From Terriglobia bacterium (GTDB lineage Bacteria; Acidobacteriota; Terriglobia; Acidiferrales; UBA7541), in the NCBI GenBank assembly GCA_963695545.1, contig OY968796.1, forward strand, positions 2,400,001 through 2,464,000: a stretch of 64,000 nucleotides of DNA. The letters are read 5' to 3'. The number at the start of each line of letters is the position of its first letter. Position 1 is the first letter of the stretch. A program made the translations under genes and the position numbers. Under the pieces are notes generated by a model. That model searched no databases. It saw only the letters and a list, made by a program, of their open reading frames with translations, and was not told the DNA's origin. Positions 17,628 to 54,237 of the stretch are shown piece after piece.

Positions 17628-18068
17628 CTATGCGTACAAGTCCAGCGGACCCGCGGTCATGGTCGTTTGTCCGACTTCAATGAGGTACCCGTCCGGGTCG
17701 CGCATGTAGCATCGCAATTCCGTTGCGTGGACTTTGGGCTCGGTGATGAATTTCGCGCCCCGCGAAGACCAAAGTTCGTAGTAGCGCGCGATGTCCGTTA
17801 CGCGAAGGTTCAGAAAGATGCTGAGAACGTTTGGATCGCGCGGCGGCGAAGCGACGACGTCGGGCTTGTCGTCGGTCGGGCCGCCACCGCCGTTGATCGT
17901 GAGCCAAATATTGCCGAGCCTCAAAAACGTCGGCTGCCCCTCGCGGAGCACCGTCGCGCCGAGGACGTCGCGATAGAACGCCACTGAGCGCTGAATGTCC
18001 CTAACGATGAGGGTATTCGTCGCCACAAACTTGAGTTCATTCGGCTGATCCGATTGGGGCATCGACAT
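17628..18068 (-). CDS. VOC/glyoxalase-family protein
   Basis: VRDIQRSVAFYRDVLG and YMRDPDGYLIEV motifs. Confidence 0.9.
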   Translation of the reverse strand: MSMPQSDQPNELKFVATNTLIVRDIQRSVAFYRDVLGATVLREGQPTFLRLGNIWLTINGGGGPTDDKPDVVASPPRDPNVLSIFLNLRVTDIARYYELWSSRGAKFITEPKVHATELRCYMRDPDGYLIEVGQTTMTAGPLDLYA

Positions 18069-18155
18069 GCCACCTCCCTTTGTGAGTCACTTTCCAAGGT
18101 TCGCTCCAGAGCGTAACTTCGAGCCCTCGAGCAGGGTTAGGCGCCGCGATGCCGT

Positions 18156-18407
18156 TTAAGGCAGGTACCCGTCCGCCATCCATTTAGCGAATAGCTCAAT
18201 GCGAGATTGAGGCCAAGGACCTTCTCCTCTTGGTGGCGGGGGCGGCATTACGGAGCCCCCGATTGCCCGAATGCGGTCGTAAATCGCGGCTGCGTGGGCC
18301 TTCACGTCGTCATAACTCGCCAGGTTAAACGCCTTGCTCATGCCCTGAATGTCCCGGTCCGTAAAAAGCGGGCGAATGTCTGCTTGAAAACTCGTTGGTT
18401 TGGTCAT
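18156..18407 (-). CDS. Small hypothetical protein (83 aa)
   Basis: GAGGGG RBS; protein-like pattern SF..DIRPLF...MPP...W...I.LF..W...G. Confidence 0.75.
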   Translation of the reverse strand: MTKPTSFQADIRPLFTDRDIQGMSKAFNLASYDDVKAHAAAIYDRIRAIGGSVMPPPPPRGEGPWPQSRIELFAKWMADGYLP

Positions 18408-18689: not shown

Positions 18690-18765
18690 CGGATCGATTC
18701 TCTCGGGGGGAGGTGTTGCCGAATCAACTGATTAGATGGAGTTGCGTCGACCGGTTGACCTCGCA
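18690..18765 (-). mobile_element. Isolated IS30-family end remnant
   Basis: 18722-18782 aligns without gaps to 50506-50566 (50/61 identical). The inner boundary is approximate. Confidence 0.65.
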
Positions 18766-18826
18766 CGACTTATCAGTAGTTGGGCCGGTAGGCCGCCGGT
18801 CTTGGATTTCGCCAACGCGCAGCAGG

Positions 18827-44132: not shown

Positions 44133-44204
44133 TGTTGCGATAAACGTGCAAACCACGGATTTGGATACCTTGCCAGATGTCCGGTAGACTGCGTTAGCCG
44201 GGAC
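44133..44204. repeat. Back-to-back pair of degenerate dif-like sites
   Basis: TGTTGCGATAA-ACGTGC-AAACCACGGAT and ATGTCCGGTAG-ACTGCG-TTAGCCGGGAC; same arrangement as 47413-47479. Confidence 0.5.
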
Positions 44205-44287
44205 TCCGATCCTACGTTTTGGCCTTCCAAAAATGCTTTTCTGACTGTCCGTCGCCGAAAGCTCAAGTGAATCGCAGCGCGCGGAAG

Positions 44288-44734
44288 CTAGTTCGATTTG
44301 ATGGTGCTCTCCACAGGTTTGACCATAGTGGCCGCCACTTCGCACTGACCATCGACCGACTTCCACACACGCAGATAGCCGGTCTGGAATGAGACGTGTT
44401 TGCCCGTTTTTTGTTCGTCGTAACTCACCTCACCCCCTCCGTATTCGTAGGCCATATCGCCGGACTGCGAAACATCAACTCGCTGTGGATGATCCGCATC
44501 AACTTCATTCTTTCTCGGTTCTTCGGCTTCCGCCTTCGCCTTAGCTTCCTCCCGCGCAGCCGCTCCGATGATCGGTTGGTCATACGCACCGGACCAAAAG
44601 AAGTTGTCGTCGGTATATTTGATCGTCTTGTTTTGAACCGCGTCGCGGATCGTCTGCTCTGAGCAAGCCGGCCCTTGGGCCATGGCCGCGATCGGAGCCG
44701 CAAGTAAGAAAACCAAGGCACAAATCGTCTTCAT
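44288..44734 (-). CDS. Secreted NTF2-like (DUF4440-like) protein
   Basis: Signal peptide; VSQSGDMAYEYG and YLRVWK..DGQ motifs. Confidence 0.8.
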   Translation of the reverse strand: MKTICALVFLLAAPIAAMAQGPACSEQTIRDAVQNKTIKYTDDNFFWSGAYDQPIIGAAAREEAKAKAEAEEPRKNEVDADHPQRVDVSQSGDMAYEYGGGEVSYDEQKTGKHVSFQTGYLRVWKSVDGQCEVAATMVKPVESTIKSN

Positions 44735-45014
44735 GCGCGTTCACCTCGCTGAGTTGGGAATAGGAAGGCCCTCTTAGATTGCAGGCTACATTACGATAGC
44801 GGCTTTTCTGCCGTCAACAGCGGCCGCGTTATGCGCGCGCCCCACGCTTGCCCGCCACGGCGGACAAAGACGGGGCCGCCGATTTCTTCTTCGCAATAAG
44901 CGCAGCGCAGCCCAACTCACCGCGCTCACTCGGCATGGCAAACCCAGTCGGGGAACAAGCCATGAAGAATGAAGCGAAGAGGCGCCGCTGCGCATCCCAT
45001 TAGCAGGCGGTTGC

Positions 45015-46382
45015 GTGCATTTCAGTCGCACCGCTGCAATCGCAACCTTGGAGACTGGCGTGGGCGCGTCTGCACCCCGCGTGGTGATCGTGGGCGGAGG
45101 TTTCGGCGGCCTGTTCGCCGCGCGCGGCCTCGCCCGCGCACCGGTCAGCGTCACGCTGATCGACAAACGAAACTATCACCTGTTTCGTCCCATGCTCTAC
45201 CAGGTTGCCACCGGCCTGCTCTCCGCTGATCAGATCTCTGGGCCGTTACGCTCGATCCTCCGCAAGCAGCGCAACGTAGAAGTGCTGCAGGATGAAGTGT
45301 CCGGAGTCGACGCGCAAAAGCGCCTGGTTCACCTGCGCGAACACGAAATTCCCTACGATTACCTTATTCTTGCCACCGGCATTCAATACAACTATTTCGG
45401 ACACAATGAATGGCAGCACGTGGCGCCCGGCCTCGAGTCGCTCGACGACGCCGACCTGATTCGCGGCAAGGTGCTCACCGCCTTCGAGCGCGCCGAGGAG
45501 ACCGCCGCGCTCGATCACACCGATACCGCGGCGATTCAGCAACTGCTCACTTTCGTGTTGGTCGGCGGCGGCACCGTGGGCGTCGAAATGGCTAGCACGC
45601 TGGCGGAAATGTCGCGCATGGCCTTGGCCCACGATTTTCGGCACATCGATCCGCGCTCCGCGCAAATTCTATTGTACGAAGCGGCGCCGCGTATCCTGCC
45701 CGCGTTTCCCGAAGTTCTTTCCGCCAAGGCGCAACGCCATCTCGAAAGCCTGGGCGTGAAGGTGTTCACGAACTCGCCGGTCACCACCGTGGATGCGGAT
45801 GGCATCGTCGCCGGCGGAAAAAGAGTCGCCGCCGGAACCGTGCTGTGGGGAGCGGGCGTCTTGGCGTCGCCGGCTGCACGCTGGTTGGGCGCCGCGATGG
45901 ACAAGTCCGGCAAAGCCATCGTCAACGCGGACATGTCCGTGCCCGGGCATCCGGAAATTTTCACTATTGGCGACACCGCCCATGTGGTTGCGCCGGCGCG
46001 CAATCTGCTGGGCTTCAAATCGAACGACGCCATGGTTATGCCCGGCGTCGCGCAGCCCGCGATTCAAGAGGGAAAATACGTGGCGCAGTTGATCCGCCGG
46101 CGCGTCGAAGGAAAGCCGGCCCCGCCGCCCTTCTGGTATTGGGATAAGGGCGACCTCGCAATTGTGGGCCGCACGTACGCGCTGGCCGATCTTCGCTTTG
46201 TGCGCTTCGCGGGATTTTCCGCGTGGATCGTCTGGGCCGTGGTACACGTCTATTTTCTGATCGGCTTCGCGAATCGTTTCTTCGTCATCTTGCAATGGGG
46301 CATTGCGTTTTTGACCAAGCGCCGCCAGGTCCGCGTCTTCACCGGCCAGGATACAGCGGCAAGAACGGCAAAATCGCCGTAG
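45015..46382 (+). CDS. ndh: Type II NADH dehydrogenase-like FAD oxidoreductase
   Basis: VVIVGGGFGG, HLFRPMLYQVATG, VGGGTVGVE, IGD and AQPAIQEG motifs; start uncertain. Confidence 0.88.
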   Translation: MHFSRTAAIATLETGVGASAPRVVIVGGGFGGLFAARGLARAPVSVTLIDKRNYHLFRPMLYQVATGLLSADQISGPLRSILRKQRNVEVLQDEVSGVDAQKRLVHLREHEIPYDYLILATGIQYNYFGHNEWQHVAPGLESLDDADLIRGKVLTAFERAEETAALDHTDTAAIQQLLTFVLVGGGTVGVEMASTLAEMSRMALAHDFRHIDPRSAQILLYEAAPRILPAFPEVLSAKAQRHLESLGVKVFTNSPVTTVDADGIVAGGKRVAAGTVLWGAGVLASPAARWLGAAMDKSGKAIVNADMSVPGHPEIFTIGDTAHVVAPARNLLGFKSNDAMVMPGVAQPAIQEGKYVAQLIRRRVEGKPAPPPFWYWDKGDLAIVGRTYALADLRFVRFAGFSAWIVWAVVHVYFLIGFANRFFVILQWGIAFLTKRRQVRVFTGQDTAARTAKSP

Positions 46383-46526
46383 CGCGAATAGAGACCAATA
46401 CCGTCTCCGCGTAGCACGGCTAATCCTGGCGGCGCGCCTTCGCCCTTTATCCCTTCCGCCCCAGCTCTCAAAACTCGCCCCGTGCACCGCCAAGAACGCC
46501 GTGCACCACCAGCTAACTCAGCGGGG

Positions 46527-46559
46527 CACTTGCCCGGAAATCCGGCTAATCAGGAGTTG
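46527..46559 (+). repeat. dif-like site A
   Basis: TTGCCCGGAAA-TCCGGC-TAATCAGGAGT; 28/33 identical to 47449-47481. Confidence 0.7.
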
Positions 46560-46565
46560 CAGGAC

Positions 46566-47246
46566 TTAGTGTGGAATCGACTTCCGGAGTTTGTCAGCTT
46601 GTTGTTTGAAAGACTGCAACAAGAATTGCATGGTATGGGTGAATTCCTGGGGCGTTTGACCGGTTTGCTGGGTCGCAGTCAGCGCAGTGCGAACGATATA
46701 GACCGGGCCAGAGTCAGGCTCGCCACTGAACGCCTGCTGATACTGGTTGCGGTTCCAATTCTGGTCCAGTCCCCGCTGTAATATCGCGGCAGCATCTTCA
46801 TTCTGGGAGGCGATCAGAGCGCGGTTGTTGAAGATATTGCTTGCCCATTTGGGTGGGCCAAAAGATTCGCCGTCAGCCCAGACACCTGCAACTACTTCCA
46901 CTTTGTCAGGTAGAGCGTTTCCCATCATTGGACTGAGAGGACGTAAGACCGTCTGTCCCGGTTCGATGGGAGTGTTATTGGGAGTGTTACCTTGCATCAG
47001 CGCATCCCACACTGTCGTTGTTTTCCTTGCGGCTTGCGACGCATAGGATTGTTCGAAGACGCAGGCGGTTACCGTCTTGCCAGTAAGATTCGTGACCGCG
47101 AAACTTGGTCCTTGTCCTTTTTCACCGGTGGCACGAATCTCGATTTTGAATTTAGGTCGTTCTGGTGTGGGCGATGTTCCCTGAGCTGCTGCTGAGAAAA
47201 GCATTCCCCCGCAGAGGACGCAAAAGGCCGCCGCAAACATCTTCAT
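46566..47246 (-). CDS. Secreted hypothetical protein
   Basis: GGAG RBS, signal peptide MKMFAAAFCVLCGGMLFSAAA; visibly more AT-rich than its neighbours. Confidence 0.8.
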   Translation of the reverse strand: MKMFAAAFCVLCGGMLFSAAAQGTSPTPERPKFKIEIRATGEKGQGPSFAVTNLTGKTVTACVFEQSYASQAARKTTTVWDALMQGNTPNNTPIEPGQTVLRPLSPMMGNALPDKVEVVAGVWADGESFGPPKWASNIFNNRALIASQNEDAAAILQRGLDQNWNRNQYQQAFSGEPDSGPVYIVRTALTATQQTGQTPQEFTHTMQFLLQSFKQQADKLRKSIPH

Positions 47247-47412
47247 TGAAATCTCCAATAGTCAGCCAATGTGTGCATCGTTCCAGAGTTATTTCTAACA
47301 TCAACCCACCGCCCTGTAAGAGTCAGCGCCACAACGAGTGTTCCAAGCAATACCTTCCTCATGTCATTAGCGCACAACAACTCTAAAGCCGGTCGCCGCA
47401 CACGGAGCGCTA

Positions 47413-47481
47413 CGTCCTGATAAACGCGGAAACCGCGCATATGGAACCCACTTCTCCGGTAATCCGACTTATCAGGAGTTG
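47413..47481. repeat. Back-to-back dif-like sites C (minus) and B (plus)
   Basis: CGTCCTGATAA-ACGCGG-AAACCGCGCAT (47413-47440) and TTCTCCGGTAA-TCCGAC-TTATCAGGAGT (47452-47479). Confidence 0.7.
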
Positions 47482-47634
47482 GCCGGACTCGGTGGGCGGG
47501 TGAGTGCGGCGGGAATCATCGGAGAAAAAACGGTCCTCCGTCAATACTGCTGTGCGCGGGCCCTCGTTAGATGGACGAATTCGAGGTGCGCCGCAACTCA
47601 TGAATGATCGCGAGGGACGTGGGGAGATGCGCTG

Positions 47635-50070
47635 TTACTCGTAGCGCAGCGCCACCATCGGATCGACGCGCGTCGCTCGCCGCGCCGGAAAATAGCACGC
47701 CGCGCATCCCACCACGATCAGCACGCCCGCCACCGCCGCCAGCGTCACCGGATCGCGCGGCGACGCGCCCGAAAGCTGACTCGCGATCACGCGGCTCAGC
47801 GCCACGCTCAGCAGCAGCCCCACGCCGACGCCTAGCGTCACCAACTGCAGCCCCATCCACATCACCATCCTTAACACGTCCGCGCGCCCCGCTCCCAGCG
47901 CCATGCGAATCCCAATCTCATGCGTCTGGCGCGAAACCGTGTACGCCGTGACGCTGTAAACTCCTAGCGACACCAGCACCAGCCCCAGCCCCGCGAAAAT
48001 TCCCATCAACACAAGTGCGAATTTCGGCCCCGCATACGCGTATTGTTCCAGAAATCCCTCAAGGCTCCCGGTGTCCGCAGTCGTCGCATTGCGATCCACC
48101 GCCCAGATCGCATCCCGCACCGGATTCACCAGAAGATTCGGATCTCTCACGGTCTTCGCCATCACCGCGCGATAAAAAGTGCCCGTGATCGTCGCCGGGA
48201 CTAGCACCTCCGCCTCGGTCGGCTCGGTCAGCGAGTCGTTTCTCACATCGCTCACCACCCCTACGATCTCGAAATTCGCATTCGGCACCGGATCCACGGG
48301 AAGCGTCTGGAGATCGTCAAGCGTAACGTCCTGGCCGATCGGGTTTTCATTTCCGAAATATTTCGTCACCAGGGTCTGATTCACCACGGCCACTTTCTGC
48401 GCGTCGTTCACTTCCTGCTCCGTCAGCAGTCGTCCGCGCAACAGCCGCATTCCCAACGTCGGGAAATAATTGGCGGTACATAGTGTAACGACGCTTCTCC
48501 AATCGTCCGAATGCACCTTGCCAGGAATATCCAGCTTGGACCCCACGCCGCCAAATGGCGGTATCGAAGTGGTTTCCGCCGTTGCCACTACGCCCGGCAG
48601 CACGTCCATCCGCGCCAGCAGCTTTGTGAAGAACAGCTGCTTCTCCGCCGCCGTCGTGTACTGCCCGCGCGGAAATGCTACGCGCGTGAACAAGATGTGA
48701 TTCGGGTCAAACCCCAAATCGACATCAACCATTTTCACAAACGCATGCATCAGTACTCCCGCGCCCGCCAGCAGCACCAGTGACAGCGCCACTTCAACAA
48801 CCACCAGCACGCTCCGAAATTTTCCGCGCCGGAATCCACCGCTCACGCCGCGTCCCGAATCTTTGAGCGGCTCAACAAAATCGCGTTTGGCCACCTGCAG
48901 CGCCGGCACCAGTCCGAACAAAACAGCGGTGAGAATCGCGGCGACCAGCGCGAACGCCAGCGCCGCCGCGTTCATTCGGATAATCGTTTCCCCCGGAATC
49001 GTGTCCACGGGCATTGCCGCCACGATCTCCGTAATTCCGCCGTATGCAAATACGCACCCCAGCGCCGCCCCACCCAGCGCCAGCAGAAAACTCTCGATCA
49101 ACAATTGCCGAATAATTCTCCATCTCCCCGCGCCCATCGCGGAGCGAATCGCCATCTCTTTTTCGCGCGCCGTCGCTTGCGCCAGCAGCATGTTCGCCAC
49201 GTTGCTGCACGCGATCAGCATCAGCAAGCCCACCGCCGCGGCCAACACGTACAGCGTCGCGCGAAAATCCCCGATGACGTTGTCGACCATCGACACCACC
49301 TGTACCCTGAAATGTTTGGGATAGCTATTCGGATATACCTGTGCTTCGTGCACGGCGATTCCATTCAATTCCGCCGCGGCTTGCTCCTTAGTGATTCCGG
49401 GCTTCAAGTGCGCTTGCAACGTAAAGCCGCGTTTCGCAAAATCCGGATCGCCGCGATTCGCATTCACCGGAATCCACAAATCCGCTCCCAGCTTCGTGAT
49501 GTGCGGCGGCATAATCCCTACCAATATCGTTGGCACGTCGTTCAACACGAAGCTTTTCCCGACGATCGATGGATCCCGTCCAAACGATTTCACCCACGTC
49601 AGGTAGCTCAACACGAATACGGGAGGCGCACCCGGCTTGACGTCGTCCGGCGTGGAGGTGCGGCCCAGCATCGCCGGAACGCCCAGAAAATCGAATGTGT
49701 TTGCGGTTACGTAGCCTCCGTCGAACTGCTCGGTTCCTTCCTTTGTCGTGTATAGGACATCGTCGTTGCCGCCTCCGATCACATCCTCGAACGAGTGGCT
49801 CTGCTCCGCGTAATCCAGAAACTCCGGACCCAGCATCCGCCGGCGCCCGCCCGTGCCCACGTCGCTCGTGTTGTGAATCTGCACCGCTACAATTCTGTCG
49901 GAGTTCTTGTAAGGAAGTGGATTGATCAGAACGTTGTCGATCACGCTGAACATCGCCGTCGAAGCGCCAATGCCCAGCGCCAGCGTCAGCACGGCAATCG
50001 CCGTGAACCGCGGCTTCTTCAGCAACATTCGTGTGGAGTAGCGGAAATCCCGCGCGAGCCCGTCGAGCAT
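47635..50070 (-). CDS. Duplicated MacB/FtsX-type ABC permease (ADOP-like)
   Basis: [50 protein letters not shown] and DPMVALRYE motifs. Confidence 0.93.
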
Positions 50071-50344
50071 AGGCCCTCCGTGCAACTCCCAGGAGATGCA
50101 GCGCAGCGTGTAACGTTTGCCTAAGACGTGGATGGCCGCGCGTCGCGAATCATTCCCTGCCCTGATCTCAACAACCGCGGAAACTGCGCGCAGATAATAT
50201 CAGTTCCCACCAAGCCAGTCGCGTTCTTACAATATTCGAAGGATCCGTCACTTCCCCGCACCACACCTTCCTCCTTGTTCCGCTCGATCTCTTCGCAATC
50301 GCCGGAAAAAGTGAGGTACTAGGGCCCAGATGTCCGGTAATCCG

Positions 50345-50549
50345 GGTGGTCTCAATGGGTCGACGTAACACCAGCTCGAAGTCCGCTTGCGGGAGCCCAA
50401 AACGCCAAAGTCATTCGCGAGCGTTGAGTCAAACAAAAGCACTACCCTGTGTAGGTCTAATGAACACAAAGCCGCCAGAACAGTTCTCTTTCAGGAAGCC
50501 TTTCCAATCAATTGATTGGAGGGCGTTGCGTCGACCCGTTGAGCTGGCG
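50345..50549 (-). mobile_element. Internally deleted IS30-family element (about 205 bp, MITE-like) inserted in a dif-like site
   Basis: Inverted ends GTGGTCTCAATGGGTCGACGTAACAC / rc GCCAGCTCAACGGGTCGACGCAACGC; frameshifted transposase C-terminus ...DLHRVVLL..QRSRMTLAFWAPASGLRAGVTSTH*; 2-bp CG duplication. Confidence 0.75.
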
Positions 50550-50688
50550 CGGCTTATCGGGAGTTGTGGACGTGTTCGAGTTGGCCATCCACGCGAGCCC
50601 ACCGATCGCCGATCCCCAACGCGAGCTTCGAAATCGCGATTGGTTCAATTTTATTGCGGCGTGTTCAGATCGCGGGACAGCATCAATT

Positions 50689-53262
50689 TCAGCGCACTTC
50701 GATGAAGAAGCCGTCTACTCGGCGCCCGAATCCGGCGAAGTCGCCATAACTCGGGGACGTGACGTTATTGAACACGTCGTGCGGATTCTGATGATTCGTC
50801 ACGTCGACGGAAAGCACCCCGACATGCAGGATGCGGTTGTCCGGACGGCCGTGAAGCGTGAATCTACTGAGCGAGAAATCCCGATACACCTGAAAATCGA
50901 GCGAGAAGTAGTACGGGAAGCGCAGGGAGTTGGGCGTTCCCACATAATTTTGAAGAGCGTCGACCGAGGAATACGGCAACCCCGTGTGCACGTCCAGTAC
51001 CGGACAGATGGTCATCTTGAACGGCAACGCAAACGATCCAGTCGCCACCAGGCGATTGGGAACGTCCGATGGCGAAATGCCATAGGAGTTGGGGCGGATA
51101 ACCGGCTGCTCGAATGGCACGAAGATGTTCGAGAGCAGATTCAAATCACTCAGGGCGCTGCTGTGGATATAGGAAATGTCCAATTCGTCGCGCTCGGTCG
51201 GTTGGAAACGCAGCGCGGCTTCGAAGGCGTGATATCGGGCGCTCCCGGAGTACGCTAAACCCAGAAGTGACGGTCCACCGGAAGAGCCGGTGACGTCAGG
51301 CATCGGACTGACGATCGGGAGATCAGCGGTCGCACTCTGGAGATAGTTGACGCGAATTTGCAGGTTGCGCCGCAGCTCGTGGTCAAGTTCAACATTCCAG
51401 GTAACGTTGCGTGAGGCCGCGTCGAGGTCGTCGGTGGCGACGGCAAATCCACCGCCGGAGGTTTTTCGCAGATTGACGTTCTCGAAGCTGATCGGAGTGC
51501 CCGTCAATTCACCGTTCGCATCGTAGTAGCTGATCACCCTGGTGAGGTTATCGGTGAAATCCGTGGCCAGCATCGGAACGCGATCGAAGAAGACGCCGGC
51601 CCCGGCATGAATCACGGTTTTCTGTCTCTTATCGGGAGAGAAGGACAGCCCGAGGCGCGGTGCGAACGCCGCGCCTCGGCCCGCGACCTGGCTATCCAGC
51701 CGCGCGCCGAGGTCGGCTGTCACGCGGCCGCCGATCCCCCAACGATCCTCGATAAATTCGGCGACTTCGGTATCCGTGCCGCGCGTCAGCCCGGAGCCCT
51801 GGAAATTGATTTCCTCCGCGAGCGACCCATCCTCTCGAAGCATCTGAACAGGGTGGGAATGCGTAGTGCCGTCATACGCTCGACGCGATATCGCAACGCC
51901 CTGCGTAAACTCGTGATGACCGTGCCAGTTTTTCAAGGGAATCCGCAACGATGGCAACACCTGAAGCTGGTCCGTATTTCGGACCCAGGAGTTGAAATAA
52001 TTCCCGCTCCATCCCTCCGGCGTGATGAGCATGTCCGCGAGGCCCTGGCCGGCGGCGTTGGTGTTGAGGCGCGTGTATTGAATGACGGTGCGCGCCAACA
52101 TCCCAGAGGCGAACTGGTAGCTGTCTGATACGCCCGCAGAGAACCCATGCTGGCCATCGTTCGACGACGCCGTTTGGGGCACGAGCGCACCGATGCCGGC
52201 AAACTGCACGTGCTGGGAGAAGAGGTTCAAATTCAAATTCATGACGTGCCGCGAAGACAAAATTGCCTCAATGCTGGTTCTGGCGCCGGCGCCCTGTGTG
52301 ACCGTTTCGTTGTAGGGCCACGGAAGTCCGCGGACGGGCGGCCTCGTGAATGTGTAAGTGATCGCCTCCGAAAAATGAAGTTTCCCCTTCCAAAGCGGAC
52401 CGGTCAGGTAAAGCCGCGGCTCCTCGTCCTGAACACCGACGACGTGGTCGTTCTTTCCGCGGAAACCGGGAAGAAAGTTATTCAGGCCGAACTGCCAATG
52501 ATCTGCCGGCGCTTTCGTTTGGATCTCGGTCAATCCTCCGGAGAACCCGCCGAACTGGGAATCATAGGGAGCCTCCAGCACGGATAGCGTCTGGATGGCG
52601 TCGACGGAAATCGGAATGGAAAAATTTCCGGTCACCGGCTCGACATTCTCGGCGGAGTCGACCAACAACATTCCCTCGCTTTCGGGTGTCCCCTTTATGT
52701 TGAGCGTGCCATTCTGCGTTCGGACAACGCTGGGAACCAGGGGAAGGGCCGAGGTAACGCTCGGTTGTGGGAGGGGCAGGTTCACGATTTGTTGGCTGGT
52801 GACCGTGGTGGCAGTGCTCGCGTTCTCTGTGGCGATCGAGCTTGCCGTTTCTCGGACGACTGCCGTTTGAGACGTAGCGGCGAGACGCAGGCTGACATCG
52901 CGCGTCAGAATCGCGCCCTGCGTCAGGTCCACTGTCACGGTAAGAGTTTGAAAACCGGCCAGGCTTACTTCCAGCGTGTAGGTGTCACTGGGCAACCCGG
53001 CAAATCGATAGGCGCCGTCTTCGTCCGTGATCGTGGACCATCCGGGAACTCCCGCGTTCGCGGAGCTTAACCGTACCGTGGCGCCTGATAGCGGTGAAGA
53101 CTTCCCGGGATTCTCCTGGAGCGATACGCTGCCTTGGATAGAGCCGGCGTTGGATGGAGCCGCACCGCGCGCGCTTTGCGCCACGGCGCCGACGGGCGCG
53201 AGAACAATCAAAGCCGGAAGGATCAGACCGAGAGCGTCGCGTGTGTGTCCGCGAAGATTCAT
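50689..53262 (-). CDS. TonB-dependent receptor-like outer membrane protein
   Basis: Signal peptide, carboxypeptidase-like N-domain (TDEDGAYRF), YDSQFGGFSGG plug, EDRW..DLGARLD and APRLG motifs. Confidence 0.88.
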   Translation of the reverse strand: MNLRGHTRDALGLILPALIVLAPVGAVAQSARGAAPSNAGSIQGSVSLQENPGKSSPLSGATVRLSSANAGVPGWSTITDEDGAYRFAGLPSDTYTLEVSLAGFQTLTVTVDLTQGAILTRDVSLRLAATSQTAVVRETASSIATENASTATTVTSQQIVNLPLPQPSVTSALPLVPSVVRTQNGTLNIKGTPESEGMLLVDSAENVEPVTGNFSIPISVDAIQTLSVLEAPYDSQFGGFSGGLTEIQTKAPADHWQFGLNNFLPGFRGKNDHVVGVQDEEPRLYLTGPLWKGKLHFSEAITYTFTRPPVRGLPWPYNETVTQGAGARTSIEAILSSRHVMNLNLNLFSQHVQFAGIGALVPQTASSNDGQHGFSAGVSDSYQFASGMLARTVIQYTRLNTNAAGQGLADMLITPEGWSGNYFNSWVRNTDQLQVLPSLRIPLKNWHGHHEFTQGVAISRRAYDGTTHSHPVQMLREDGSLAEEINFQGSGLTRGTDTEVAEFIEDRWGIGGRVTADLGARLDSQVAGRGAAFAPRLGLSFSPDKRQKTVIHAGAGVFFDRVPMLATDFTDNLTRVISYYDANGELTGTPISFENVNLRKTSGGGFAVATDDLDAASRNVTWNVELDHELRRNLQIRVNYLQSATADLPIVSPMPDVTGSSGGPSLLGLAYSGSARYHAFEAALRFQPTERDELDISYIHSSALSDLNLLSNIFVPFEQPVIRPNSYGISPSDVPNRLVATGSFALPFKMTICPVLDVHTGLPYSSVDALQNYVGTPNSLRFPYYFSLDFQVYRDFSLSRFTLHGRPDNRILHVGVLSVDVTNHQNPHDVFNNVTSPSYGDFAGFGRRVDGFFIEVR

Positions 53263-53312
53263 AGGAAGGTGCAGTGTATCCGGAACGAAACCAGGATCGT
53301 ATAGATAAGAGG

Positions 53313-53615
53313 TTATCTCAGCGGCTCAATGCCCTCGCATATTTCTTCCGGCATGTTCCATCTCGAGAGGGCGACGACCTGGACGGTCCGGGAGTTCGGG
53401 CTTCCGCCGGGCGCCAGGGTCATTTCTGCTTCCACCAGGTCAGTTCGACGCAGATGGGAACGTCGTTCTTCACAGCCCTGGCCAGGAGTTCCGGCGGATC
53501 GATCTTGAAATCGGCGTGCGTTGCGAGCCGTGTCCGCCTGATACTCGGCTTCCGATGTCGCCCGCTCCAGGAAACCTTGGCTTGCTAGGTCATCTTCGAC
53601 TATTCGTAACCGCAT
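53313..53615 (-). pseudogene. Possible decayed response-regulator receiver fragment
   Basis: MRLRIVEDDLASQGFLERATSEAEYQADTA resembles a receiver N-terminus and has a GGAGG RBS; the rest does not resemble a receiver domain. Confidence 0.4.
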
Positions 53616-53695
53616 GAGCCTCCCCCTCGCAGGGACTCTACACCCGAACCTGGAATCTTTGTAACCGCTCAAGCGTTGGAATAACAGCGACGCAG

Positions 53696-53729
53696 CCAAC
53701 TACTGATTAGCGCGCTATTCGCACTTGCC
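53696..53729 (-). repeat. Degenerate dif-like site
   Basis: Reverse complement ggcaagtgcgaata-gcgcgc-taatcagtagttgg; the right arm matches 18770-18783 at 13/14. Confidence 0.55.
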
Positions 53730-54030
53730 TAGCGCCGCGGCGCAGCCCGCTTCCTCTCTGATTCTTAAGTTCGCACGAGCTCACTCCCGGTCCTCCAACC
53801 GCCGAGTAACACCGAGCGCACCTCAGTTTGGGCATGCGCGGCCCCCGGCGACGAGTTTTCGAACAGTATACCCACAAAATAATATTGACATCCGCCAACA
53901 GTTATGCTAAAAGGTGGTGTGAAGACCGAACATCTTTTCGAATTGCCCCGTCCCCCTCCCGGATGCCGCTCCGGGGAGGTACCCAGCGCCTACTCCCGTC
54001 CCATCCCGCCGTCCCAGTCACGCAAATCTT

Positions 54031-54204
54031 CGCACTCATTTGCACCAAACCCACCCTCCAACCCCTTCATTTCCAGCACCTTGCAAAAGAGTGCGCAACT
54101 CATTGAAACCACTCAACATTAAGTCACTCTGTTTTCACACTCATCCGCACTCTTCTCCTGCAAGTCCTTTGTTTCCAGCTATTTCGCAAAACATACCGGG
54201 GGTG
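54031..54204. repeat. Degenerate intergenic repeat tract
   Basis: Three related units at 54059, 54120 and 54161 plus the inverted pair aagagtgcg/cgcactctt. Confidence 0.5.
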
Positions 54205-54237
54205 TATATACGCAAGAGCTATAATATCGACCGGGCC

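What the first reader, a model, noticed from the sequence alone, without database searches (positions are those of the whole stretch)
44133..53729. Array of dif-like 11-6-11 sites partitioning accessory genes into modules
Seen: related sites at 44133(-), 44177(+), 46530(+), 47413(-), 47452(+), 50330/50554(+, IS-split) and 53696(-), plus a weak one at 50164(-). The best copies read (A/T)T(G/C)TCCGGTAA-TCCG(G/A)C-TTATC(A/G)GGAGT. Orientation largely alternates, so minus-strand envelope genes (secreted protein, permease, TonB receptor) sit between inverted sites. Known: Xer sites are 11-6-11 with inner TAA/TTA, and pdif modules are bounded by inverted sites. Inference: a chromosomal tyrosine-recombinase cassette system with the recombinase acting in trans; none is encoded in this window.
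Basis: partly seen in the sequence, partly recalled or inferred. Interest (0 to 1): 0.8.

Follow-up and report, generated by a model that had tools for sequence, protein, structure and literature searches.

The report
Two-site gene-module shuffling system, soil Acidobacteria
The short repeats are real cut-and-join sites, in two non-matching types, that frame single swappable genes across one family of soil Acidobacteria, and the enzyme that most likely shuffles them is a Xer-like recombinase that this genome does not carry.

Summary
The sites are real, though decayed here. They belong to a family-wide 11-6-11 motif with two fixed spacers, A (TCCGAC) and B (SCGCGT). It was found in 86 of 151 family genomes and 2 of 401 across the phylum. 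One arm type faces mostly single genes; the other faces a linker of about 18 nt. Two of the window's modules recur in other genera with boundaries at the same sites and different neighbours; one homology edge falls on the spacer/arm border. IS30 elements insert mid-spacer, so the sites are their targets, not scars.

These are not attC sites, and only half of each site is dif-like: one arm matches acidobacterial XerC arms, the other fails the XerD matrix. A 316-aa Xer-like recombinase clade sits beside such sites (13 of 19 close relatives, 0 of 89 other recombinase loci). It is missing from this genome and has no intact copy in the five site-richest genomes tested. Best reading: dif-module-like cassette exchange by a dedicated, transiently present recombinase; host XerC is the main rival. 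This scan noted the same recombinase-linked system earlier on other DNA (e1-6400047). No recombination was shown.

The parts
44133..44160 (-). Decayed site, left member of a back-to-back pair
   Evidence: 2.4-3.7 bits; aligns with an intact A site in the G076 homologue
44161..44176 (.). 16-nt linker between the two decayed sites
   Evidence: resembles the G076 linker; family mode is 18 nt
44177..44205 (+). Decayed B site with one extra spacer base
   Evidence: 16 bits when one spacer base is dropped in silico; homology to G076 starts at 44178, on an intact B site
44288..44734 (-). Cargo gene, DUF4440 protein; its far A site is lost here
   Evidence: Pfam; 82% homologue in G076 lies between B and A sites
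45015..46382 (+). Type II NADH dehydrogenase-like gene; inside the array but not shown to be a module
   Evidence: Pfam; homologue loci carry no site at the gene ends
46530..46557 (+). A site (spacer TCCGGC)
   Evidence: 36.6 bits; homology with G070 ends at 46546, the last spacer base
46566..47246 (-). Cargo gene, 226-aa protein of no Pfam family, signal-peptide-like start by eye; the best-supported module
   Evidence: homologues in 8 of 150 other family genomes; 86% and 90% copies carry site remnants at both ends
47413..47440 (-). B site (spacer CCGCGT)
   Evidence: 19.9 and 30 bits
47441..47451 (.). 11-nt linker of the intact A/B junction
47452..47479 (+). A site, near consensus (spacer TCCGAC)
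   Evidence: 51.5 and 55.7 bits, the best in the genome
47635..50085 (-). MacB/FtsX-type permease between two direct A sites; module status not shown
   Evidence: Pfam; 72% homologues in G003 and G004 lack sites
50330..50344 (+). Left part of an A site split by an insertion
   Evidence: 38-42 bits once the insertion is removed in silico
50345..50551 (.). IS30-family miniature element (205 bp plus a 2-bp CG duplication) in the middle of the spacer
   Evidence: same ends as full elements that encode HTH_38/rve transposases; 29 of 37 such ends follow an arm plus four spacer bases
50552..50564 (+). Right part of the split A site
50689..53262 (-). TonB-dependent receptor-like gene between the split A site and the last B site; module status not shown
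   Evidence: Pfam; homologues in G003 and G005 have no site at the gene ends
53699..53726 (-). Weak B site closing the array (reader gave 53696)
   Evidence: 19.3 bits, 8.6 bits

Best explanation
The sites are crossover sites of a two-class module-exchange system. Shown: each site has two related 11-bp arms (L and R) around spacer A or spacer B. Cargo modules have R arms facing in and one A plus one B end; linkers have L arms facing in; homologous modules change neighbours at the sites. Inferred: A recombines only with A and B only with B, because the spacers share one of six bases. A module can therefore be swapped by two crossovers, or added and lost together with a linker, but not flipped or cut out alone. 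Inferred: the enzyme is a single Xer-like tyrosine recombinase of about 316 aa whose gene itself sits in the linker position between L arms, so the 18-nt linkers are its empty, non-autonomous form. It passes through genomes and decays. The window is an orphan, eroding array in a genome without the gene. About 0.9 that these are recombination sites bounding modules, about 0.65 that this clade is the enzyme.
For: Two spacer classes and alternation: 322 of 399 adjacent site pairs are inverted A/B. Breakpoints: 9 of 69 usable alignment ends lie within 10 bp of a site in both partners and 14 of 69 in at least one (random mean 2.8, max 10 in 300 draws). A 95% identical cargo module has different linkers at both ends, and another shared stretch starts at the first base of an A spacer. 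The window's own modules recur bounded by sites. The locus is empty in same-genus G003. Recombinase link: sites of at least 12 bits within 1.5 kb in 13 of 19 loci at 73% identity or more (seed locus left out), 1 of 22 more distant loci and 0 of 89 other recombinase loci. Flanking sites face L-arm-in (6 upstream, 8 downstream of 41 loci; wrong strand 0). The catalytic R-K-H-R-H-Y pattern is present. Fragments remain in 2 of 5 site-rich genomes, one inside an array region. A plasmid relative has its own diverged NNCGAC sites.
Against: No recombination or binding was tested. 55 of 69 alignment ends are not near a site. The recombinase is absent from G000, and there is no intact copy in the five site-richest genomes searched. 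XerC and XerD are the only recombinases seen in all site-rich genomes examined. A gene that travels as cargo would also be found beside sites. 6 of the 19 close loci have no site. Sites next to the recombinase are mostly A/A pairs with NNCGAC spacers, not A/B. The L arm is nearly identical to published acidobacterial XerC arms. Four runs of one study showed no joint at any site, on contigs only. The metagenome loci were picked with a junction pattern, which inflates the A/B count.
Confidence: 0.6

Rival explanations
1. The same module system is run by host XerC, alone or with XerD on a degenerate arm, as at the TLC and GGI sites. The Xer-like gene is a passenger or helper.
For: The L arm matches published dif XerC arms at up to 10 of 11 bases and scores like a true XerC arm in the discriminating columns (4.9 and 4.6 vs 4.0). 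XerC and XerD are in every site-rich genome examined. Divergent XerD arms are known at TLC attP and difGGI (PMC5357621, PMC4246890; passages). One G000 cluster lies 4-8 kb from the candidate dif.
Against: R arms score -12 on the XerD matrix, below background (-6.9). Array arms keep CCG in a genus whose dif XerC arms mostly read CCT or CCC. G000's own dif arm matches the L consensus at only 7 of 11. Sites lie all round the chromosome. The motif is limited to one family while XerCD is general. My XerC matrix is biased by the search pattern used.
Confidence: 0.25
2. The back-to-back A/B junction works as a folded single-strand hairpin, like attC or CTX attP(+), and is recombined on one strand.
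For: The junction is an inverted repeat with a mismatched centre. Linker length is narrow (144 of 167 are 17-22 nt). Loop ends are weakly self-complementary (p=0.03 within loci).
Against: No covariation of L arms across the junction (p=0.78); R-arm covariation is as weak across junctions (0.048) as across modules (0.035). Breaks occur at both A and B. Cargo orientation is free. AAC and GTT are both present in 28 of 183 junctions. The window's intact junction folds at z=-1.45 only. 69 of 399 neighbours are same-class direct pairs.
Confidence: 0.08
3. The repeats are not recombinase sites but REP-like or protein-binding repeats, or products of IS30 and IS110 targeting.
For: Several IS families crowd the sites. 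Many alignment ends are away from sites.
Against: Intact sites without any IS are the majority. The IS30 duplication is 2 bp inside a pre-existing spacer. A fixed spacer class on each side, arm exchange at spacer edges and a recombinase clade between the sites are not expected of such repeats. No Rfam match.
Confidence: 0.07

Closest known systems
dif modules bounded by pdif sites in Acinetobacter Rep_3/OrfX plasmids, and their chromosomal copies (PMC13141974, PMC12907356, PMC11705084)
   Same: 11-6-11 sites, inverted around one or a few genes; two alternating module types; spacer classes that limit which sites recombine; site-seeking IS.
   Different: The gene-facing arm is not XerD-like; there are two fixed spacers across genera; one module type shrinks to an 18-nt linker; arrays lie at many chromosomal places; a dedicated recombinase clade is linked; the host is Acidobacteriota, whereas PMC13141974 calls dif modules unique to Acinetobacter.
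Integron cassette arrays and attC clusters without integrase (Acidobacteria attC model in PMC8352920)
   Same: Arrays of single accessory genes, mostly unrelated to each other (175 singletons among 207 ORFs); stop codons often inside the site (16 of 112); arrays persist without the enzyme.
   Different: No IntI found; consensus unlike the published model; no fixed gene orientation; room for a promoter upstream; breaks at two site classes.
IMEX sites: TLC attP, difGGI, CTX attP (PMC5357621, PMC4246890)
   Same: XerC-like arm with a divergent second arm; CTX also has two inverted dif-like sites side by side.
   Different: IMEXs integrate at dif; these spacers match none of 26 dif sites; no phage carries the motif in the collections searched.
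Single-recombinase systems (XerA, XerH) and engineered cassette exchange with heterospecific lox sites (the latter recalled, not read)
   Same: One enzyme on near-symmetric arms; direction and partner choice set by the spacer. The nearest solved structures of the candidate enzyme include XerA, XerD and XerH.
   Different: Those resolve chromosome dimers or are laboratory tools; here the layout occurs naturally as gene arrays.

Membership tests
Acinetobacter-type dif modules (pdif) | 28-bp 11-6-11 site with inner TAA/TTA | tested here: met
   consensus from 101 A and 68 B sites; the inner triplets vary between TAA and TTA
Acinetobacter-type dif modules (pdif) | One arm is a XerC site | tested here: met
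   by sequence only: 10 of 11 to a published dif arm; matrix scores
Acinetobacter-type dif modules (pdif) | The other arm is a XerD site | tested here: not met
   R arms -11.9 and -12.0 in columns 4-7 against 6.0 for true XerD arms and -6.9 background
Acinetobacter-type dif modules (pdif) | Inverted sites give two alternating module types | tested here: met
   322 of 399 adjacent pairs, with selection bias in the metagenome loci
Acinetobacter-type dif modules (pdif) | Carried on Rep_3/OrfX plasmids | tested here: not met
   chromosomal; no match of a consensus-like junction among 72,556 plasmids
Acinetobacter-type dif modules (pdif) | Bound and recombined by host XerC/XerD | not testable with these tools
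   needs binding and recombination assays
Integron (attC/IntI) | Integron integrase | tested here: inconclusive
   0 of 151 genomes of the order at E<=1e-60, but the control did not ring; none among G000's recombinases; the candidate enzyme scores 38 bits against a cut-off of 265
Integron (attC/IntI) | Invariant AAC and GTT cores (motif recalled; AAC seen in the published model) | tested here: not met
   AAC 100, GTT 48, both 28 of 183 junctions
Integron (attC/IntI) | Likeness to the Acidobacteria attC model | tested here: not met
   consensus letters read by eye from supplement file 4, parts 24-25, model positions 1-83; six text searches found no junction word; the model itself was not run
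Integron (attC/IntI) | Co-oriented cassettes | tested here: not met
   63 B-to-A vs 79 A-to-B by a codon model
IMEX | Integration at dif with spacer homology to dif | tested here: not met
   the A and B spacers are GC-rich and equal none of 26 dif spacers
Tyrosine recombinase, Xer-like (candidate enzyme) | Core-binding plus catalytic domain with R-K-H-R-H-Y | tested here: met
   PF00589 80 bits, weak SAM-like domain; motifs placed by pattern; separate from XerC and XerD in a quick tree with a long-branch warning

The most novel reading that the evidence does not exclude
A natural cassette-exchange system distinct from integrons and from XerCD dif modules. A single mobile Xer-like recombinase, carried between its own sites, uses two incompatible spacers to capture and swap single genes. 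It leaves 18-nt empty linkers and builds integron-like arrays (up to 45-60 A sites per genome) across a soil family in which no integron integrase was found. IS30 and IS110 elements have specialised on its sites.
Probability: 0.45. Interest if true: 0.88.

Novelty: new variant of a known kind. Interest (0 to 1): 0.7.

Why it matters
It would be a third route, beside integrons and Acinetobacter dif modules, by which bacteria keep arrays of swappable single genes. It sits in a soil and peat family where IntegronFinder-type tools would not see it. How dif modules move is still argued (PMC11705084 found cointegration, not excision); two fixed spacers and a candidate single enzyme make the exchange model directly testable. 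A natural recombinase with two non-crossing spacers could also serve as a cassette-exchange tool.

Tried and rejected
attC reading: rejected. Hairpin covariation: weak or none. First test of the recombinase link: I scored 0 of 17 relatives as site-free at 10 bits and dismissed it. Reading the flanks and fetching closer relatives reversed that. The loose motif test (9 of 15 distant loci downstream vs 0.8 expected; 12 of 19 upstream vs 4.4) used patterns written after I had seen the flanks, so it is a hint only. Small FimB-like recombinases: present in several site-rich genomes, none in G000, sites beside only one. A first dif pattern matched only 2 of 61 genomes; a looser one found 35 of 81; two dif loci were read backwards and corrected. 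No motif in viral contigs, plasmids or phages; no recombinase relative in viral contigs. No Rfam match. Contigs from four runs of one study, possibly the source sample, gave no joint at a site; contigs drop rare variants. Empty-site comparisons in same-genus genomes (77-85% identity) show cassettes missing but are too diverged to place the first insertion. One planned check, site counts in five recombinase-bearing genomes, could not be run. Ten literature searches listed no description of this motif or system. The library lacks most subscription papers, and bioRxiv supplements were closed.

Full report
CONTEXT. The window lies at 2.40-2.46 Mb of a 4.16-Mb single-contig genome. Records sharing the motif are titled almost all Acidobacteriota, many Acidiferrales; the taxon is inferred from that. 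The array sits between a PfkB kinase gene and a GH79 gene. In same-genus G003 the kinase gene lies 64 bp from the methyltransferase gene beyond GH79, so about 12 kb are absent there.

OBSERVATION. A matrix trained on 20 sites outside the window scores 46530, 47452, 47413, 53699 and the rejoined 50330 site at 36.6, 51.5, 19.9, 19.3 and 38.3 bits. 44133, 44177 and 50164 fall at or below background. With a matrix from other genomes, G000 holds 24 sites of at least 18 bits at about ten places, against none in two shuffles. 44133 and 44177 are rescued by homology: the DUF4440 module of G076 (82%) has an intact A/B pair at the same place and an A site at its far end. 50164 has no support.

ANATOMY. 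There are two classes: A, TTGTCCGGTAA TCCGAC TAATCAGGAGT (101 sites) and B, TTGTCCGGTTA GCGCGT TAATCAGGACT (68 sites). Of 399 adjacent pairs, 169 are A/B with L arms facing (150 under 130 bp apart), 153 are A/B with R arms facing (median 975 bp), 69 are same-class direct pairs and 8 are other. The 55 metagenome loci were chosen with a junction pattern and some loci overlap, so these counts lean towards A/B. Linkers peak at 18 nt (68 of 167). Of 192 IS-free R-facing segments, 112 hold one called gene, 30 hold two to four and 50 none; orientation is 63 against 79. Of 137 cargo proteins, 71 hit a Pfam family (kinases, hydrolases, TPR, TonB, permeases, three transposases) and 66 none.

DISTRIBUTION. 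An A pattern with up to two mismatches occurs in 86 of 151 family genomes, with up to 45 copies, and the reversed control in none (three of the positives are unpublished genomes G013, G037, G082). It occurs in 2 of 401 genomes across the phylum and in none of the viral, phage or plasmid collections.

BREAKPOINTS. After masking IS and dropping ends at contig edges or IS, 9 of 69 alignment ends lie within 10 bp of a site in both partners and 14 in at least one; random placement gives 2.8. The other 55 do not. L059 and L199 share a 95% module with different linkers on both sides. L168 and L169 share DNA from the first base of an A spacer. A 650-bp L-facing module and a 1.95-kb R-facing module recur with new neighbours. 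For the window's 226-aa gene, the G070 copy (86%) stops matching at 46546, the last spacer base, and keeps an R arm with another spacer. Both it and the G142 copy (90%) end at an IS-interrupted B site on the far side; the 72% copy in G036 has no site. Homologues of the permease and TonB genes in G003, G004 and G005, and the NDH-2 homologue loci (two from unpublished G632 and G082), have no site at the gene ends. Those three genes are not shown to be modules.

IS. The 50345 insertion has the ends of IS30-family elements and duplicates two central spacer bases. 29 of 37 such ends follow an arm plus four spacer bases; two of the other eight are the same ends counted twice, and most of the rest look like worn sites. 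These loci were chosen for having sites, but the only such left end found in all of G000 is this one. The sites are targets, not scars.

RELATION TO dif. Published acidobacterial dif sites have XerC arms ATGTCCGATAA and ACTTCCGATAA (PMC3025954, two supplement rows), nearly the L arm. On matrices from 26 dif sites of the order (one from unpublished G025; found with a pattern that favours CCG), L arms score 4.9 and 4.6 in the discriminating columns of the XerC matrix (true arms 4.0). R arms score 0.7 and 0.3 there and about -12 on the XerD matrix (true arms 6.0, background -6.9). The R arm keeps only the inner TTAT and outer A[GC]T of a XerD arm. No dif spacer equals A or B.

THE ENZYME. G000 encodes XerC, XerD, two phage-type integrases and two remnants. 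A Xer-like gene between two perfect sites in L087 first seemed incidental (0 of 17 relatives). Earlier scan notes, and a sequence look-up that later returned e1-6400047, made me look again. The family is in 67 of 401 genomes (only six candidates scored per genome). Sites of at least 12 bits lie within 1.5 kb of 13 of 19 loci at 73% identity or more (seed locus left out), 1 of 22 more distant loci and 0 of 89 loci of other recombinases, most from site-rich genomes. Flanking sites stand about 60-110 bp upstream and 10-120 bp downstream, L arm towards the gene, never on the wrong strand (41 loci scored). They are A-type, with identical spacers on both sides in L375, L376 and L378. The intact protein has 316 aa with R162, K190, H260, R263, H286 and Y295 (placed by pattern) and is about 26-31% identical to XerC and XerD. 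Against this: the five site-richest genomes searched have no intact copy, though two keep fragments, and a passenger gene would also sit beside sites.

MECHANISM. Shown: site classes, layout, arm exchange at spacer edges, and the recombinase's position. From general knowledge of tyrosine recombinases: strand exchange needs spacer homology, so A x B should be blocked. Inferred: modules move by paired A x A and B x B crossovers, either through a cointegrate or as a cargo-plus-linker circle. In Acinetobacter only the first was seen (PMC11705084, passages). How DNA enters the cell and how a first site is placed are unknown.

COMPARISON. It works like the dif-module system (PMC13141974, abstract and introduction; PMC12907356 and PMC10132070, abstracts; bioRxiv 2022.12.17.520857, passages) but fails the XerD-arm and plasmid tests, so I do not file it there. 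It fails the attC tests (PMC8352920, passages and supplement parts). IMEX parallels come from passages of PMC5357621 and PMC4246890. Passages of PMC8138268 and PMC13323075 did not mention such a system. Ten searches found no description (listed under Tried and rejected). The scan's own notes describe this recombinase-linked system and similar ones in other lineages; they are unchecked and not independent support.

VERDICT. Real and family-wide, with a decayed example in this window. New variant of the dif-module kind, possibly a separate class. Interest 0.7.

Noticed in passing
G000:C1:3374100-3374127 (-): Candidate chromosomal dif, about 70 kb from the point opposite dnaA and near the GC-skew maximum; a module cluster lies 4-8 kb from it.
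   Followed up: partly
L067:8020-9440, L070, L082, L310, L318, L319, L321-L324: At least three IS110-type elements insert at or in the L arm or linker of these sites, a parallel to IS that seek attC and pdif (two confirmed by Pfam).
   Followed up: partly
18-nt linkers in loci L057-L329: Linkers occur in both orientations (GTAC at position 11 in 34, at position 5 in 20, absent in 14 of 68). Lengths cluster at 9-11, 17-22 and 30 nt, roughly helical steps. Unexplained.
   Followed up: partly
window 18722-18780: An IS30-type right end followed by the right half of an A site, with no matching left half seen.
   Followed up: no
window 53860-54212: A dispersed repeat with many copies in G003 and G004 and at least two elsewhere in G000, just right of the array.
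   Followed up: no
G000:C1 137026, 1962575, 2393793, 3686278, 3844113 and others: A second repeat family with a TAA-N6-TTA core (AAAGGACTTAA...TTAGAAT), unrelated to the module sites.
   Followed up: no
G000:C1 2591123, 2604269, 2887981, 1751157: Lone modules between core genes have a different L-arm flank (TCA or CCA, then G[TC]TTCC) from array linkers. G003 keeps part of one such arm beside an inverted A spacer. This may show how arrays are seeded.
   Followed up: partly
L400 (NC_015060.1) 2805, 3494, 4143, 9663, 11669: More symmetric 11-6-11 sites with CGAC- or CGT-type spacers around a 59% relative of the recombinase on a Granulicella plasmid.
   Followed up: partly
L113:96 and 144: A site pair with the same arms but other spacers, 48 bp apart, near a distant recombinase relative: further spacer classes may exist.
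   Followed up: no
L061, L088: The motif also turned up in contigs binned as Binataceae and Verrucomicrobiae: transfer or misbinning.
   Followed up: no
loci L057-L329: Ser/Thr kinase-like genes are the commonest recurring family in or near arrays (19 loci).
   Followed up: no
G000:C1:3505-4170 and 17939-18334: Two broken integrase remnants, the first beside tRNA-Pro.
   Followed up: partly
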